Source: Myxococcota bacterium
GTDB taxonomy: Bacteria; Myxococcota; XYA12-FULL-58-9; JASMKV01
Length of the DNA stretch: 64,000 bases
Assembly: GCA_030749035.1 (NCBI GenBank)
Contig: JASMKV010000301.1
Location: forward strand, 4,523 to 68,522
Reading direction: 5' to 3'
Part shown: one piece after another, positions 46,721 to 52,400 of the stretch
Position numbering within the stretch: position 1 is the first letter of the stretch
How the letters are laid out: every line of letters begins with the position of its first letter
Translations under genes and position numbers: made by a program
Notes under the pieces: generated by a model
Seen by the model: only the letters and a program-made list of their open reading frames with translations
Told to the model about the DNA's origin: nothing
The model's database searches: none

Positions 46721-47687
46721 ATAGGCTGTTCGTCCATAGCTTTTCAATCACAATGGCGAATAATATCACAAAAACGTAGGTCATGACGCCCAATGTATCA
46801 TGCGCAATATTCCAATAATCGATATTGCTGGAAAACCAGTAGGCGCAATAACAACTCAATATGATGCGTAAGGTGTTACCAATAAACCCACCCAGGAAAA
46901 CCAAGATCAAAAATCGAAGGCTTCTGTCTATTCGCCTCGCATATAACACCAACGACAGCACAAGGGACAAAGTTTGTAGGGCCACAAATGTCTGCACACC
47001 CGCACAAGCCGATGTCACAGTGAGTCTGAACCCCTCACCTTCAATGGTCTGCAGGGCCTCTGGACGAATCAGCGTGTTGAGCCCTGCTTTGCTGACCACA
47101 AATTCTGAGAGATAGGCGGTCACTTCGCATAACTTTAAATCAACCAACGGCCCCAAAATATAATCCCAAGGGCAGACGAAGAAGCCCAAGAGAGAGGGCA
47201 CCAGCCAAAAAGAGAGTTCAAAACACCAAAACAAAGCGCGCACTAAAAAAGCAAACGACAATGCCCACAACACTGGATGCACAAACATTGCCCCCAAAGC
47301 AAAGAGCCCGCTTAAGCCCAGCCAAAACCAATAGTTGGAGTTCAAATCAGGCTTTTTTTCGCTATCTCGCTGAGCATCAATAAAAAAGAGCAGCCCCGCC
47401 AAAAGTGCGCAAAGGGAGCGTAAAACCGCCTGCGACTCAATCCAATAAAGGCGCTCCAAATAAAAGAAGAAAGGTATGTGCAGCCCAACCCCTAAAACGA
47501 GCCCCAATGCTTTCTGCTTATCTATTACTTTCAACAGCTTAACACCCAAAGAGCAGCCTAATCTTTCGCCACTAAAAGCACAATCTCTTCTTGACACAAA
47601 GACAATCCAAGAGGCATATGTGCACGTATTGACAGGAGAAAATGATGAGCGCTGCACAAAATATCCCTTTAGCACAACAGGAATCAA
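46695..47687 (-). CDS. Exosortase/archaeosortase-family polytopic membrane protein (putative transpeptidase)
   Basis: About 8 TM helices. A Cys-containing motif …[13 protein letters not shown]… (compare exosortase ACSG) is followed by an Arg and a …GNTLRI… (Asn-x-x-Arg) motif, consistent with the exosortase catalytic residues. Confidence 0.5.
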
Positions 47688-47689
47688 CC

Positions 47690-49120
47690 ATGCATACGGA
47701 CTTTAAAGTTAAAGATCTTAGCTTGGCCGAATGGGGCCGAAAAGAAATCAAATTGGCCGAAATCGAAATGCCCGGCCTGATGGCACTTCGACAGGAATAT
47801 ACGGCAGAAAAACCTCTAAGTGGTGCACGTATTACCGGCTCATTACATATGACCATTCAGACTGCCGTTCTTATCGAAACCCTTGTCGAACTCGGCGCCA
47901 AGGTTCGCTGGGCCTCTTGTAATATTTTTAGCACCCAGGACCATGCTGCTGCTGCGGTTGCCGTTGGACCGAACGGTACTGTAGAAGCACCCAATGGTGT
48001 TCCTGTTTTTGCCTGGAAAGGTGAAACCCTGGATGAATATTGGTGGTGCACTGAGCAAGCGCTGACTTGGCCAGGTGAACTTCCGAATATGATACTCGAC
48101 GATGGTGGCGATGCAACCATGATGGTCATTGAAGGCGCCAAATTCGAGCAGGCCGGCGCTGTTCCAACACCTAAAGACAATGATCCTGACGATTGGATCT
48201 CGCTCTTAAGTGCGCTGCAAAATGCTTTTAATCAAAATCCAAACACATGGCGCCCAATGCTCAAATCGATTAAAGGCGTGACCGAAGAAACGACAACTGG
48301 CGTGCATCGCCTCTACGAAATGGCCAAAGAAGGCAGCCTGCCCTTCCCTGCCATCAACGTGAATGATTCGGTGACCAAAAGTAAATTTGACAATATTTAC
48401 GGCTGTCGCCACTCTTTGGTCGACGGTATTATGCGTGCAACAGATGTCATGCTTTCAGGCAAAACCGCACTCGTATGTGGCTATGGTGATGTCGGTAAGG
48501 GTTGTGCGCAATCTTTACGCGCCCAAGGTGCCAGAGTCGCGATCACTGAAATTGACCCGATTTGCGCGCTACAGGCCTGTATGGAGGGCTATGAGGTCGT
48601 CCAACTCGAAGATGTTCTGGCCACCACAGACATTTTCATCACGGCAACAGGAAATTACAATGTCATTAGCGCCGAACAAATGGCCAAAATGAAAAATAAC
48701 GCCATTGTTGGGAATATTGGCCATTTTGACAATGAAATTGATATGGCAGGCTTAAGTAAACTTGCAGGCATCAAGTGCGAAAACATCAAGCCTCAAGTCG
48801 ATCGCTGGGAATTCAGCGATGGGCATAGCGTGATTGTGTTGGCCGAAGGGCGCCTGCTTAATCTGGGCTGCGCCACAGGGCATCCGAGCTTTGTCATGTC
48901 CAACAGCTTTAGCAATCAAGTGATTGCACAAATAGAGCTCTTCAAACATACCGACAAATATGAGGGTGTGCAGGTTCTACCCAAGCATTTGGATGAAAAA
49001 GTGGCGCGATTACACCTGGATAAACTCAACGCAAAGCTCACCATCCTCAGTGATGAACAAGCCAACTACATTGGTATCCCTAAGAATGGACCCTATAAGC
49101 CCAATCACTATCGATACTAG
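47690..49120 (+). CDS. ahcY: Adenosylhomocysteinase. The ORF is open from 47642, but the start at MHTDFKVKD is preferred
   Basis: …[17 protein letters not shown]… is a conserved N-terminus. The NAD-binding motif is GYGDVGKG, and …GHFDNEID… is present. Confidence 0.95.
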
Positions 49121-49125
49121 GCTTG

Positions 49126-49281
49126 ATGGCAACCTATAAGGTCATCTTAAAGAAGCTTAGCGATGGCACTTTTGATGCGCGTTACAATGCCACCATTGTG
49201 GGTATGGCAGAATCCACCGGCAACTCAGAAACCGCAGCCCTCGATCTGCTCCCTAAGGAGATACGCTATCGCATTGAGTGA
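49126..49281 (+). CDS. Unannotated 51-aa ORF resembling the UPF0150 / HicB-like antitoxin N-terminal fold
   Basis: Manual translation gives MATYKVILKKLSDGTFDARYNATIVGMAESTGNSETAAALDLLPKEIRYRIE*. It matches the M-x-YKV-x-L…DG-x-[FY]-x-A…G…G-x-T-x-E-x-A…L pattern of small HicB/UPF0150 proteins. It is below the 60-aa ORF cutoff. Confidence 0.4.
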   Translation: MATYKVILKKLSDGTFDARYNATIVGMAESTGNSETAALDLLPKEIRYRIE

Positions 49282-49490
49282 TGTCCCTGCTCTGGGGTTG
49301 CTGAGGACGATATCAATTTAGATGTGAAGCGCATCAACGATCGCTCCTTAAATCACTTAAAAGCCTATAAATAGGGGCTGAGAGCCTTAAGGAAACTGTC
49401 AAGTACATCAAAAAAATAATTCGACCTTTTTTAATCTATGTGTGCTATTTTAGACTTGCTCGAATTTTCGAGTGGCGTTAGTGGGTTTTT

Positions 49491-52400
49491 ATGGCGAGCA
49501 CCTCAGGCTTTACACATCTGCATTTGCACTCACAATACTCCTTACTCGATGGCGCCATTCGTCTCGACGATTTGATCCCTGCCGTTAAGGAAAAAGGCAT
49601 GGATTCGGTCGCCGTGACCGATCATGGCAACATGTATGGCGCGGTTGATTTTTACAATACGGCCAAGAAACACGACATCAAACCAATCTTTGGCTGTGAG
49701 GCCTATATCACCGGCGACAAACCCTGCTCTGATCGATCCAGCCGTGAGTCGTATCATCTTATTCTCTTGGCCAAAGACAACGAGGGCTATAAGAATTTAA
49801 GTTACTTGGTGTCCATGGGCTTCTTAGAAGGCTTTTACTACAAGCCCCGCATCGACAAAGAACTCTTGCGCAAACACTCAAAAGGCTTGTACGGCCTCTC
49901 AGCTTGCCTCGGCGGCGTCATCAACAAAGCTTGGATGCGCGAAGGCGAAGAAAAAGCAAGTGCCATTGCCAAAGAATACCAAGACATTTTCGAGCCGGAT
50001 CATTTCTTTTTGGAAGTTCAGGATAATGGTTACGAGGAGCAAGTCAAAGCCAATCAGTTCTTGATGAACCTTTCTGAGCTCTACGATATCCCCCTGTGTG
50101 CCACTGCCGACTCGCATTACCTCACCCCCGATGAATCGGCCGCACACGAAGTCTTGATGTGCATCCAACAGAACAGCTCTCTACAGCAGTATCGACAGCG
50201 CATGAAACATTCCGACCAACTCTATGTCAAAACCCCCGAAGAAATGTGGAATTCCTTTGGCAACACGATTCCACAGGCGGTTGAAAACACCACCCGAATC
50301 TCGCAAAATTGCAACGTTGAACTCAACCTCTCGGACACCTACTTACCCAACTATAAAATTCCTAAAGGCTACAGTCTTGAATCTTACCTTGAAAAAGTCA
50401 CCAAAGATGGTCTCAAGGCACGTATCAAACACGCTCAATATGCCATCGATCAGGGTGTCTATAAAGAGCGCATGGAACATGAACTCGGCATTATTCTTAA
50501 GATGGGATTTGCCGGCTATTTTCTCATTGTCTGGGACTTTATCAAACATGCCAAAGAAAGACGCATTCCTGTAGGCCCTGGACGAGGATCCGGTGCGGGC
50601 TCTATCGTGGCCTGGGCGTTAGGCATCACCAACATCGATCCTATCCCCTATGACCTTATTTTCGAACGCTTCCTAAATCCCGAACGCGTCTCCATGCCTG
50701 ATTTCGATATCGACTTTTGCCAGGAACGCAGAGGTGAAGTCATCGACTATGTGACTGAAAAATATGGTTCCAACAATGTCGGTCAAATCGTCACCTACTC
50801 ACAGCTCTCTGCCAAAAGTGTCATCAAAGACGTAGGTCGCGTCATGGAAGTTCCATTTGGGGAAATCAATGAGCTGACCAAGCTTATTCCGGGGCTCGTC
50901 AACGGGCGCAAGGTCACCATCGACCAAGCGCTTGATATCGAACCCAAACTTAAAGAGATCCAAAAAGAAAAACCTATTTACAAGCAAATTATTAAGATTG
51001 CCCGCGACCTCGAAGGCCTTAATCGACAAACCGGTATGCATGCAGCGGGCATTGTTATTTCAGATAAGCCCCTCTGGGATTACGTCCCCGTATGCCGTGG
51101 CAAAGAAGGCGAAAAGGTCACCCAGTTTGCCAAAGATGAAGTTGAAATGGCAGGCTTGGTTAAATTTGATTTTCTCGGGCTCAAAACACTCACGGTTGTC
51201 GCCAAAGCAGAAAACCACATTAAGAAACGCACCGATGAAGGCCCTTTGGGCAACAATAAAGATTTTGATATCGAAGAAGCCCCCATTGATGATCCCGCCA
51301 TTTATAAGCTTATTGCCAGCGGTGACACCGACGGCGTTTTTCAACTCGAATCCAGTGGCTTCAAAGAGTTGCTCAAACGACTTAAGCCTGACTGCTTTGA
51401 AGATATTGTTGCGGCAGTCGCCCTCTATCGTCCTGGGCCATTAGATGCGGGGATGGTTGACGATTATATCAATCGCAAACATGGCCGAACCGAAGTCAAT
51501 TACCCCCATGCGGTTTGCGAGCCCATATTAAAAACAACCTATGGTGTAATTGTTTACCAGGAACAGGTCATGCGCATCGCTGTTGATCTTTGCGGTTTCA
51601 CCATGGGCGAAGCCGATGTTTTACGAAAAGCCATGGGCAAGAAAAAAGCTGACGTCATGGCCAAAATGCGCAAGAAATTTGTCGACGGTGCCCATGATTT
51701 AAACGGCATGAAGAAAAAAGCCGCAGATGAGCTTTTTACGCAAATTGAAAAATTTGCCGGCTATGCTTTTAATAAAAGTCATTCCGCCGCGTATGCGCTC
51801 ATTTCATACCATACGGCCTATCTGAAATATTATTACCAGGTTGAATTTATGGCCGCCCTACTTTCGACTGAAATGCGCGATCAGGATGATATTGTAAAAT
51901 ATATTCAAAGCTCCAGAGAACGCGGCATTGATGTATTGCCCCCAGATGTCAATCGATCCGAGCGCGATTTTACGGTCGTGCATGAAAATGATGAACATCG
52001 TATTCTCTTTGGCTTAGGCGCGGTTAAAGGCGTCGGCGATGCCGCCATTGAATCGATTCTTTCATCCCGAGATAAAGATGGCGCCTTTACTTCAATCTAC
52101 AATTTGTGTGAGCGTGTTGAAACCAAACGCTGCAATAAAAAAGTGTTGGATGCGTTAATCCGCTCTGGCGGACTTGATGATTTTAATCGACCACGTGCAC
52201 AACTGATCAACACCATTGAAAAAGCGCTCGAGGCAGCACAAAGTGCCCAAAAAGACCGCGCTTCAGGGCAAACTAATATTTTTGCAATGATGGCCCCCGC
52301 AGACGATGCGCCTAAAAATGCCGCAGGCATCGCCGAGAATTATCCCAACATTGAAGAGTGGCATGAAAAAGAAAAGCTCGCGAGCGAAAAACAAGCTTTG

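What the first reader, a model, noticed from the sequence alone, without database searches (positions are those of the whole stretch)
49121..49490. Unannotated HicB/UPF0150-like 51-aa ORF in the ahcY–dnaE spacer without a HicA partner
The 370-bp spacer contains a clean ORF (49126..49281) whose product fits the small RNase-H-like UPF0150/HicB N-domain pattern. No HicA-like toxin ORF is found in any frame of the remaining 200 bp. It is either an orphan antitoxin-like protein, a remnant of a degraded toxin–antitoxin pair, or a standalone UPF0150 protein. The spacer also carries a perfect 6-2-6 palindrome ctcgaa-tt-ttcgag (~49458–49471) about 20 bp upstream of the dnaE start.
Basis: partly seen in the sequence, partly recalled or inferred. 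Interest (0 to 1): 0.5.

Follow-up and report, generated by a model that had tools for sequence, protein, structure and literature searches.

The report
Stop-interrupted small HicB-fold CPC gene
The 51-residue ORF between ahcY and dnaE is the front part of an 82-codon gene for a small stand-alone protein of an unnamed but widespread family (HicB/UPF0150-like fold with a Cys-Pro-Cys motif). In this genome a TGA has replaced a tryptophan codon just before that motif, so it is most likely a recently broken gene and not an orphan antitoxin.

The parts
49126..49278 (+). Codons 1-51 of the gene: strands b1 (res 2-10), b2 (16-22), b3 (26-32) and helix a1 (35-52), ending in the family signature K-E-I-R-Y-R-I-E.
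   Evidence: ORF and translation. Identical to GenBank QGI45_09890. Family profile match E 1.6e-21. Secondary structure from the AlphaFold model.
49279..49281 (+). In-frame TGA at codon 52, in the column that is a hydrophobic residue in every other member (TGG = Trp in the nearest intact relatives).
   Evidence: TGA in the window, L001, L137 and L138. TGG in L002 and L003-5. TAG in L006. In 117 of 117 genome loci it is a sense codon: Leu 74, Met 15, Tyr 10, Trp 9, Ile 5, Phe 4. TGA is a normal stop here, used by 6 of 38 long ORFs.
49282..49374 (+). In-frame continuation. Codons 53-82 encode CPCSGVAEDDINLDVKRINDRSLNHLKAYK, followed by the terminal TAG (49372..49374). It contains the near-invariant C-P-C (49282..49290) and strand b4 (res 63-70, 49312..49335).
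   Evidence: Translation. Homologs read straight through. Codons 53-68 show a coding-type substitution pattern: window vs L002 has differences by codon position [2,0,8], dN 0.083, dS 2.0, and Ser TCT<->AGC in L006. b4 comes from the model.
49396..49434 (+). Nucleotide-invariant non-coding block CTGTCAAGTACATCAAAAAAATAATTCGACCTTTTTTAA, 57 nt upstream of the dnaE start. It is not part of the small gene. It is probably a dnaE promoter, operator or leader element (inference).
   Evidence: The 39-nt block is invariant, apart from its first base (C in the window and L001, T in the others) and one degenerate position each of Y and M, across five lineages whose dnaE third codon positions differ at 33 of 60 sites. 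It is unique in the window. No sigma-70 consensus, Rfam family or covarying RNA structure was found.
49459..49472 (.). It is a chance feature.
   Evidence: Expected about 0.86 per 370 bp, and 49% of shuffled spacers contain one. Not conserved in L002, L003 or L006.
47642..49120 (+). ahcY (S-adenosyl-L-homocysteine hydrolase), the upstream neighbour. Its stop lies 5 nt before the small gene's ATG.
   Evidence: Pfam AdoHcyase E 2.4e-147. The same synteny is seen in L001, L003-5, L006, L137 and L138.
49491..53024 (+). dnaE (DNA polymerase III alpha), the downstream neighbour.
   Evidence: Pfam PHP, DNA_pol3_alpha, finger, HHH_6 and OB domains.

Best explanation
The spacer holds an 82-codon gene (49126..49374), not a 51-codon one.

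The gene encodes a small, stand-alone cytoplasmic protein of an uncurated family found in Myxococcota, Verrucomicrobiota, Planctomycetota, Gemmatimonadota and Acidobacteriota. Its fold resembles the HicB N-domain and UPF0150 proteins (b1-b2-b3-a1-loop-b4). The sequence signature is E-[IL]-R-[YF]-R-x-E-hydrophobic-C-P-C at the end of the helix, followed by a V-x-L-x-V strand.

In this genome the hydrophobic codon has become TGA by one G-to-A transition (it is Trp TGG in the nearest intact relatives). Ordinary translation therefore ends one residue before the C-P-C motif, and the product lacks both the motif and strand b4.

The most likely state is a recent loss-of-function allele in a marine Myxococcota clade where this gene is being lost repeatedly. 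The gene is not a toxin-antitoxin component.

Basis of each step:
- Shown: the gene structure, the family, the fold resemblance, the position of the stop, and the absence of HicA.
- Inferred: that the truncated product is non-functional.
- Inferred: that the family acts through its C-P-C as a redox-active or metal-binding site. This rests on members in which the second Cys is replaced by an in-frame TGA, a candidate selenocysteine.
For: Gene structure:
- The frame is open through the TGA to 49374.
- Homologs of 65-82 aa are continuous across the site.
- The family profile spans positions 3-69.
- There are 0 stops in 117 genome loci at this codon, which the search pattern left free.

The tail was coding:
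- For codons 53-68, window vs L002 shows differences by codon position [2,0,8], with dN/dS about 0.04.
- L006 carries a TCT/AGC serine switch.

Real allele:
- The same TGA is present in the diverged L001 and in the JGI and Logan contigs L137 and L138.

Normal stop:
- TGA ends 6 of 38 long ORFs here.
- No hairpin follows it (z -0.13 and 0.14).

What is lost:
- The CPC loop and b4.

Decay in the clade:
- L006 has TAG at the same codon.
- L003-5 have TAA at codon 4, G14A, P54A and a +1 A that displaces the terminal stop.
- The window branch has 8 nonsynonymous changes (7 assigned by parsimony, plus R43P read from the alignments) against 8 synonymous. L006 has 4 against 15.
- The window's changes include R43P inside the helix (R in 93 of 111 members) and Y62D (aromatic in 97 of 111).

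Not a toxin-antitoxin gene:
-.

Redox clue:
- C-P-TGA members have conserved downstream coding.
Against: - Apart from the single stop the gene is intact: no frameshift, and CPC, DG and the E-R-R-E signature are all present.
- Long-term dN/dS is low (0.05-0.2), so any inactivation must be recent. Three independent recent lesions in one small clade is a lot.
- L006, with TAG at the very same codon, still has a low branch dN/dS (4N:15S) and an otherwise full-length domain. This is also what a tolerated or read-through stop would look like.
- The window-versus-L006 branch contrast is not significant (Fisher p 0.09).
- No expression or proteomic data could be consulted.
- Only five distinct sequences of the clade exist in the databases searched.
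Confidence: 0.6

Rival explanations
1. Recoded gene. The TGA is decoded at a useful rate, either by near-cognate tRNA-Trp read-through or as selenocysteine, which would create U-C-P-C (formally a UxxC redox motif). The cell would then make the full 82-residue protein, possibly together with the 51-residue form.
For: - The downstream frame is intact for exactly the length seen in intact relatives and has been under protein-level selection.
- Two lineages carry a stop at this same codon with otherwise intact genes.
- The family does contain members with an in-frame TGA at the adjacent CPC motif, so Sec decoding occurs in organisms carrying this family.
- The allele is stable across strains.
Against: - The column is W/L/M/Y/F, never Cys, in 117 of 117 genomes. 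Sec normally aligns with Cys.
- L006 has TAG there, which Sec decoding cannot read.
- No stable or conserved hairpin follows the TGA (z -0.13 and 0.14), and the predicted fold changes between the window and L001.
- From general knowledge of E. coli termination contexts (not tested here), U at the base after the stop is not a leaky context.
- The window shows no tRNA-Sec and no other convincing TGA-split gene.
- The Trp codon carries 8-25% of the gene's one-step nonsense target, so a double hit is not very surprising.
Confidence: 0.12
2. Functional truncation. The 51-residue b-b-b-a fragment is itself the working protein in this lineage, for example as a dimerising or nucleic-acid-binding module, and the CPC tail has become dispensable.
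For: - The 51-aa ORF is kept in at least two strains and is tightly coupled to ahcY, with a 5-nt gap.
- L006 stops at the same residue.
- Nonsense mutations further upstream are not seen in those two lineages.
Against: - Every one of about 117 genomic members and the 40 aligned representatives keeps the CPC and b4.
- b4 is part of the sheet in the model and in the UPF0150/HicB structures it matches.
- L003-5 lose the opposite (N-terminal) end, which does not fit a functional N-fragment.
- The window branch has substitutions at conserved positions of the N-part itself, including R43P.
Confidence: 0.13
3. One reading: an orphan HicB antitoxin, or the remnant of a degraded hicAB toxin-antitoxin pair.
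For: - HicB-like fold.
- Sub-threshold in-register HicB profile hits.
- One PHROG HicB-like hit.
- HicB proteins without a DNA-binding domain are said to be common (PMC11594946).
Against: - No HicA_toxin match among 81 representative small ORFs (from 103 found) flanking 117 family genes, and none in the window spacer.
- Flanking genes fall into 178 clusters out of 218 ORFs, so there is no conserved partner.
- Gaps to neighbours are mostly under 150 nt.
- No Pfam, NCBIfam or PADLOC HicB membership.
- The family-specific CPC motif is not a HicB feature.
Confidence: 0.03
4. Not a gene at all: a chance ORF lying in conserved dnaE regulatory DNA.
For: - The 3' third of the region (codons 69-82 and the spacer) is conserved at the nucleotide level, with dS only 0.29.
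- An invariant non-coding block follows it.
Against: - Homologs occur in five phyla in unrelated genomic contexts.
- The substitution pattern is codon-periodic.
- The predicted fold is confident.
Confidence: 0.01

Closest known systems
UPF0150 stand-alone proteins (Thermus thermophilus TTHA1013, PDB 1wv8; also TTHA0281 2dsy and TTHA1756 2yzt)
   Same: - About 70-residue single-domain proteins with b1-b2-b3-a-b4 topology.
- No obligatory partner gene.
- Function unknown.
   Different: - No significant sequence-profile match (Pfam UPF0150-like in 1 of 40 members at E 0.096; TTHA1756 at E 0.42).
- The E-I-R-Y-R-x-E-hydrophobic-C-P-C signature and its Sec variant are specific to the family found here.
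HicB antitoxin N-terminal domain (COG1598/COG4226; PDB 6g1c, 6g1n, 6u0i, 6hpb, 3k6q)
   Same: - In-register sub-threshold profile alignments from residue 1.
- One PHROG HicB-like hit.
   Different: - No adjacent hicA.
- No C-terminal RHH or HTH DNA-binding domain.
- No operon autoregulation context.
- Diverse chromosomal neighbourhoods.
- HicB has no CPC motif. The defining features of HicB are taken from PMC11594946.
Small bacterial selenoproteins with Cys/Sec redox motifs (for example the CxU and UxxC families tabulated in PMC13188914)
   Same: - Some members of this family carry an in-frame TGA exactly where the others have the second Cys of CPC.
- Those members have conserved downstream coding and a hairpin 12-16 nt after the TGA.
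- This is the standard signature by which such families are recognised.
   Different: - The window's own TGA is not in a Cys column.
- The fold is HicB/UPF0150-like, not thioredoxin-like.
- The family matches no NCBIfam selenoprotein model.
- It was not found by keyword in the 2026 review table.
Ordinary nonsense pseudogenes and decaying accessory genes in bacterial populations
   Same: - A single G-to-A transition turns TGG into a stop.
- Sister lineages carry different lesions.
- There is a hint of raised dN/dS on the affected branch.
   Different: - There are no frameshifts, and the rest of the gene is still intact.
- The stop recurs at the same codon in two lineages.

Membership tests
HicB antitoxin (type II hicAB) | N-terminal partial RNase-H-like fold (b-b-b-a-b) | tested here: met
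   [not shown]
HicB antitoxin (type II hicAB) | Significant match to curated HicB/HicB_lk_antitox/UPF0150 sequence models | tested here: not met
   Pfam: none for the ORF at E<=10, and 1 of 40 members at E 0.096. NCBIfam and PADLOC: none. PHROG HicB-like: 1 of 40 at E 4.8e-4. PDB HicB sequences: E 0.14-0.94.
HicB antitoxin (type II hicAB) | Adjacent hicA toxin gene in the same operon | tested here: not met
   No HicA-like ORF in the spacer. No HicA_toxin among small ORFs flanking 117 family loci. Other contexts also lack it.
HicB antitoxin (type II hicAB) | C-terminal RHH or HTH DNA-binding domain (often but not always present; PMC11594946) | tested here: not met
   The protein is 65-82 aa and ends right after b4. 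No DNA-binding Pfam domain was found.
UPF0150 stand-alone proteins (TTHA1013-like) | About 70-aa single domain with b1b2b3-a-b4 topology | tested here: met
   [not shown]
UPF0150 stand-alone proteins (TTHA1013-like) | Match to Pfam UPF0150 / UPF0150-like models above threshold | tested here: not met
Unnamed 'EIRYRxE-hydrophobic-CPC' small-protein family (defined here) | Profile match over the N-terminal b-b-b-a part | tested here: met
   The window's 51-aa product (P0002) scores E 1.6e-21 in the all-representatives search.
Unnamed 'EIRYRxE-hydrophobic-CPC' small-protein family (defined here) | Uninterrupted reading frame through the hydrophobic residue, C-P-C and the b4 strand | tested here: not met
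   TGA at codon 52. CPC and b4 are encoded in frame but lie behind the stop.
Bacterial selenoprotein (for the window's TGA) | UGA aligned with Cys in homologs | tested here: not met
   The column is Leu, Met, Tyr, Trp, Ile or Phe in 117 of 117 genomes, and TAG in L006.
Bacterial selenoprotein (for the window's TGA) | SECIS stem-loop shortly downstream of the UGA | tested here: not met
   The fold is no better than shuffles (z -0.13 and 0.14), and the predicted fold is not conserved between the window and L001.
Bacterial selenoprotein (for the window's TGA) | selA/selB/selC/selD present in the genome | not testable with these tools
   Only 64 kb of the MAG is available. No tRNA-Sec in the window, which is uninformative.
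Bacterial selenoprotein (for the C-P-U members L131-L136, not the window) | Conserved UGA aligned with an invariant Cys, with conserved in-frame coding downstream | tested here: met
   TGA replaces the second Cys in L131, L132, L133/134 and L135/136. Downstream SGV[AS]DEFVEL..., and in L131 and L133-L136 the C-terminus ...RWRG[ST]VF, match Cys-containing homologs. A hairpin is present but its covariation is weak.
Nonsense pseudogene | Premature stop relative to intact orthologs, with signs of relaxed constraint | tested here: inconclusive
   The premature stop is shown. Relaxed constraint is only suggested: 8N:8S against 4N:15S, p 0.09, including R43P and Y62D. No frameshifts.

The most novel reading that the evidence does not exclude
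The stop at codon 52 is decoded and is not a lesion. This marine Myxococcota clade would make the full-length protein by programmed read-through of TGA (and TAG in the sister lineage). Alternatively, in the window lineage, it would insert selenocysteine next to the CPC, giving a U-C-P-C (UxxC) centre. Together with the C-P-U members found elsewhere, this would make the family a new HicB-fold selenoprotein/redox family with two independently evolved recoding sites.
Probability: 0.08. Interest if true: 0.75.

Novelty: new variant of a known kind. Interest (0 to 1): 0.42.

Why it matters
For this locus the result is mostly corrective:
- The annotated 51-aa 'hypothetical protein' is a truncated allele.
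- It is not an antitoxin.
- The palindrome is noise.

The wider value lies in the family that the locus led to:
- It is a widespread, uncurated group of about 70-residue proteins (135 clusters at 50% identity, five or more phyla, almost all from uncultured genomes).
- These proteins reuse the HicB/UPF0150 fold without a toxin partner.
- They carry a near-invariant Cys-Pro-Cys that some lineages replace by Cys-Pro-TGA.

If the TGA is selenocysteine, this would be a selenoprotein family absent from current lists and models. It would give the first functional handle (thiol/selenol redox or metal chemistry) on a UPF0150-like fold whose stand-alone members have had no assigned function. It also shows how gene callers hide such cases. 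Products are cut at the TGA (51 or 53 aa), or, in one ENA record, the TGA is silently translated as Trp.

Tried and rejected
- **Selenocysteine at the window's TGA.** This was my first idea on seeing E-TGA-C-P-C. I rejected it because homologs have W/L/M/Y/F there, L006 has TAG, and there is no hairpin.
- **TGA reassignment (code 4 or 25).** Rejected. TGA terminates 6 of 38 long ORFs, and dnaE (1177 aa) has no internal TGA. The 'W' in ENA protein P0001 is a gene-caller artefact, because its DNA has TGA.
- **Assembly or sequencing error.** Rejected. The same TGA is in L001 (5 other differences in the ORF), L137 and L138.
- **Re-initiation after the stop.** The ATG in TGATG is out of frame and gives 7 codons. 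The first in-frame start downstream leaves only about 15 codons (read directly).
- **Known RNA family or structured RNA in 49279..49493.** No Rfam hits at gathering threshold or at E<=1. In the alignment fold the covariation term is unfavourable and only 2 of 43 pairs are compensatory.
- **Sigma-70 promoter or terminator in the spacer.** Nothing above the shuffle expectation.
- **Other TGA-split genes in the window as a sign of Sec decoding.** Only spans lying inside longer ORFs of other frames were found.
- **Conserved partner gene.** None, apart from a lineage-specific EutN/CcmL neighbour in Verrucomicrobiia.
- **Technical dead ends.** The afdb50 fold library was unavailable. P0052 could not be traced to DNA.
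- **Caveat on the genome scan.** The genome pattern fixed E-x-R-[YF]-R-x-E and C-P-C. Their invariance in that set is therefore by construction, and the scan could not detect C-P-TGA members. Only the codon between them was free.

Full report
**1. Observation**

The + strand carries ATG at 49126 and TGA at 49279..49281, giving 51 codons that start 5 nt after the TAG of the upstream gene. The flanking genes are S-adenosylhomocysteine hydrolase (47642..49120) and DNA polymerase III alpha (49491..53024). The identical 51-aa product is already in GenBank as 'MAG: hypothetical protein QGI45_09890 [Myxococcota bacterium]', so it is not unannotated. No other ORF in the spacer matches any Pfam family.

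The palindrome CTCGAA-TT-TTCGAG is at 49459..49472. Palindromes with 6-nt arms and loops of 0-8 occur 149 times in the window, which is 0.86 per 370 bp. 49% of shuffled spacers contain one. The orthologous spacers read CCCGATTTTTCCAC or CCCGATTTTTCAAC. It is a chance feature.

**2. The ORF is cut by an in-frame stop**

Translation in the same frame continues after the TGA as CPCSGVAEDDINLDVKRINDRSLNHLKAYK, up to TAG at 49372..49374. A search with the read-through sequence found five close relatives. Their DNA shows four states:
- TGA at this codon in L001 (95% identical).
- TGG (Trp) in L002 and in L003-5.
- TAG in L006.
- ENA protein P0001 shows 'W' although its DNA has TGA, which is a gene-caller artefact.

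The same TGA allele is present base for base in a JGI contig and a Logan contig. TGA is an ordinary stop in this genome: 6 of 38 long ORFs end with it, and dnaE has no internal TGA.

**3. The tail was translated**

Between the window and L002, codons 53-68 differ at codon positions [2,0,8] (dN 0.083, dS about 2). L006 has a TCT-to-AGC serine switch. The N-part has dN/dS of 0.05-0.2.

Codons 69-82 behave differently. There are few changes, they are not concentrated at third positions, and dS is only 0.29, while dnaE third positions differ at 33 of 60 sites. This nucleotide-level conservation continues into a non-coding block at 49396..49434. That stretch probably serves dnaE expression, which is an inference. 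No sigma-70 consensus, Rfam family or covarying structure was found.

**4. The family**

- A degenerate-pattern scan of JGI metagenomes gave three high-GC homologs with W, W and Y at the position.
- A profile search of 1.84 billion representatives gave 135 clusters at E<=1e-3. Most are 65-80 aa and match profile positions 3-69, so the domain spans the stop.
- A profile search of the 5.8-billion-protein set gave 918 proteins at E<=1e-5. None has a precomputed Pfam domain. Those that carry a source name are called 'hypothetical protein', apart from one JGI 'predicted RNase H-like HicB family nuclease' (a second such name appears).
- The alignment shows a b-rich N-terminus, a helix ending E-[IL]-R-[YF]-R-x-E, a hydrophobic residue, a conserved C-P-C (Pro in at least 90% of the 40 aligned members), and a V-x-L-x-V strand.
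- A pattern scan of 185,579 species-representative genomes left the queried codon free and returned 118 loci, 117 of them genuine. All are MAGs of Myxococcota, Verrucomicrobiota, Planctomycetota, Gemmatimonadota, Acidobacteriota and others. The codon is Leu 74, Met 15, Tyr 10, Trp 9, Ile 5, Phe 4, and never a stop.
- Caveat: that pattern fixed the E-R-R-E and C-P-C residues. Their invariance in that set is therefore built in, and C-P-TGA forms could not be detected by that scan.

**5. Fold and family membership**

Curated sequence models do not cover the family:
- Pfam: nothing for the ORF at E<=10, and UPF0150-like in 1 of 40 members at E 0.096.
- NCBIfam and PADLOC: nothing.
- PHROG 'HicB-like': 1 of 40 at E 4.8e-4.

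An AlphaFold model of the 95%-identical full-length protein, built with a 40-sequence alignment, has mean pLDDT 82. Its elements are b1 2-10, b2 16-22, b3 26-32, a1 35-52, a lower-confidence loop 53-62 holding CPC, b4 63-70, and a weak C-terminal helix.

Structure and profile comparisons:
- Foldseek finds nothing significant. Its best full-length match is again 1wv8 (TM 0.57/0.63).
- The family profile against PDB sequences gives sub-threshold hits to HicB (E 0.14, 0.15, 0.94) and TTHA1756 (E 0.42), all aligned in register from residue 1.

Membership of the curated families is not met.

**6. Not a toxin-antitoxin element**

HicB is defined by the N-domain that neutralises an adjacent HicA, usually together with an RHH or HTH domain (PMC11594946). 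Here there is no DNA-binding domain. Evidence from the family loci:
- Among flanking ORFs of the 117 loci, 218 neighbours fall into 178 clusters.
- Gaps to neighbours are mostly under 150 nt.
- Pfam on 81 representative small flanking ORFs finds no HicA_toxin.
- Four further contexts are all different.
- The only recurrent neighbour is EutN/CcmL, directly upstream in one Verrucomicrobiia group.

**7. State of the window's copy**

A stop at codon 52 removes the CPC and b4. Every intact member keeps both, and both are part of the fold.

The closest clade shows repeated damage:
- TAG at the same codon in L006.
- TAA at codon 4, G14A, P54A and a +1 A that shifts the terminal stop in L003-5. This sequence is identical in three assemblies.

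On the window branch I count 8 nonsynonymous changes against 8 synonymous: 7 assigned by parsimony, plus R43P, which I read from the alignments. The L006 branch has 4 against 15 (Fisher p 0.09). The window's changes include R43P in the helix (R in 93 of 111 members) and Y62D (aromatic in 97 of 111). The Trp codon carries 8-25% of the gene's one-step nonsense target, so two hits at one codon are not very surprising.

I therefore favour a recent loss-of-function allele (confidence about 0.6). Three points argue against this:
- The gene is otherwise intact.
- Three recent lesions in one small clade is a lot.
- L006 keeps a low branch dN/dS and a full-length domain behind its TAG.

Read-through (0.12) or a functional 51-aa fragment (0.13) therefore remain possible and need expression data.

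**8. By-product: candidate selenocysteine members**

Three representatives end at '...E[FW]CP'. DNA for two of them and for two further relatives (L131, L132, L133/134, L135/136) shows TGA in place of the second Cys. In-frame SGV[AS]DEFVEL follows in all of them. In L131 and L133-L136 the frame reads on to the ...RWRG[ST]VF C-terminus seen in Cys-containing homologs. In the first 12 codons after the TGA, L131 and L133 differ only by synonymous changes.

This is the usual signature of a Cys/Sec pair, and it suggests that the CPC is a redox-active or metal-binding site. That is my inferred mechanism for the family. It does not rescue the window's TGA, which lies one column before the first Cys.

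**9. Verdict**

- The fold interpretation is supported, and the antitoxin interpretation is not.
- The locus is a stop-interrupted member of a new, CPC-bearing variant of the HicB/UPF0150 fold.
- The locus itself is of modest interest. The family, and especially its candidate Sec forms, deserves follow-up.

Noticed in passing
L131:304-306; L132:3160-3162; L133:4160-4162; L134:596-598; L135:1268-1270; L136:1264-1266: In at least four distinct lineages of the family, the second Cys of the near-invariant C-P-C is an in-frame TGA. Conserved coding follows it (SGV[AS]DEFVEL, and in L131 and L133-L136 the C-terminus ...RWRG[ST]VF), and a hairpin starts 12-16 nt downstream. This is a candidate selenocysteine (C-P-U) form. 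It has no NCBIfam model and was not found by keyword in the 2026 selenoproteome review.
   Followed up: partly
window 49396-49434: A 39-nt non-coding block (CTGTCAAGTACATCAAAAAAATAATTCGACCTTTTTTAA) lies upstream of dnaE. It is invariant apart from its first base and two degenerate positions across lineages whose dnaE synonymous sites are saturated. It contains TGTC...GACA inverted tetramers around an A7/T6-rich core. No promoter consensus, Rfam match or covarying structure was found, and its function is unknown.
   Followed up: partly
window 49330-49371 (codons 69-82): The clade-specific C-terminal extension RINDRSLNHLKAYK has very low synonymous divergence (dS 0.29, against 1 or more nearby). 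This suggests an overlapping nucleotide-level constraint, possibly the start of the dnaE regulatory region. In L006 this stretch has diverged.
   Followed up: partly
L002:163-408: L002 has an N-terminal half of a different subfamily (dN 0.65 against L003, resembling the KFP..LK.LIDGQWQAR type). Its tail and dnaE-proximal spacer are nearly identical to L003 (dS 0.19), and its upstream neighbour is not ahcY. This indicates either recombination with a breakpoint inside the gene or a chimeric 533-bp contig.
   Followed up: no
L019, L023, L038, L040, L044, L052, L058 and other Verrucomicrobiia loci: In at least 18 Verrucomicrobiia genomes the family gene sits directly downstream (typically +12 nt, same strand) of an EutN/CcmL microcompartment vertex gene (PF03319). 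This is the only recurrent neighbourhood found.
   Followed up: partly
L001:297-545 (ENA protein P0001): The ENA record translates the in-frame TGA as Trp, giving an 82-aa product, although the DNA has TGA. The gene caller probably used a TGA=Trp model on a short contig. Such records can mask stops.
   Followed up: yes
window 53144-55792: The gene after dnaE encodes an 882-aa protein with long low-complexity runs (PAATPAATPAAT..., TPTPAPTP..., an RRRNRNRNR stretch). It was not examined.
   Followed up: no
L054 (about 5747-5779, minus strand): One genome member (a Thermoanaerobaculia MAG) has the conserved C-terminal half, but only 18 unrelated residues lie upstream in frame. This is a possible frameshifted or N-terminally disrupted copy.
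   Followed up: no
L128:7932-8267; L129:5743-6132: An IS605 OrfB/Cas12f-like TnpB gene lies about 3.7 kb downstream of the family gene in two related Deltaproteobacteria MAG contigs. This is probably incidental.
   Followed up: no
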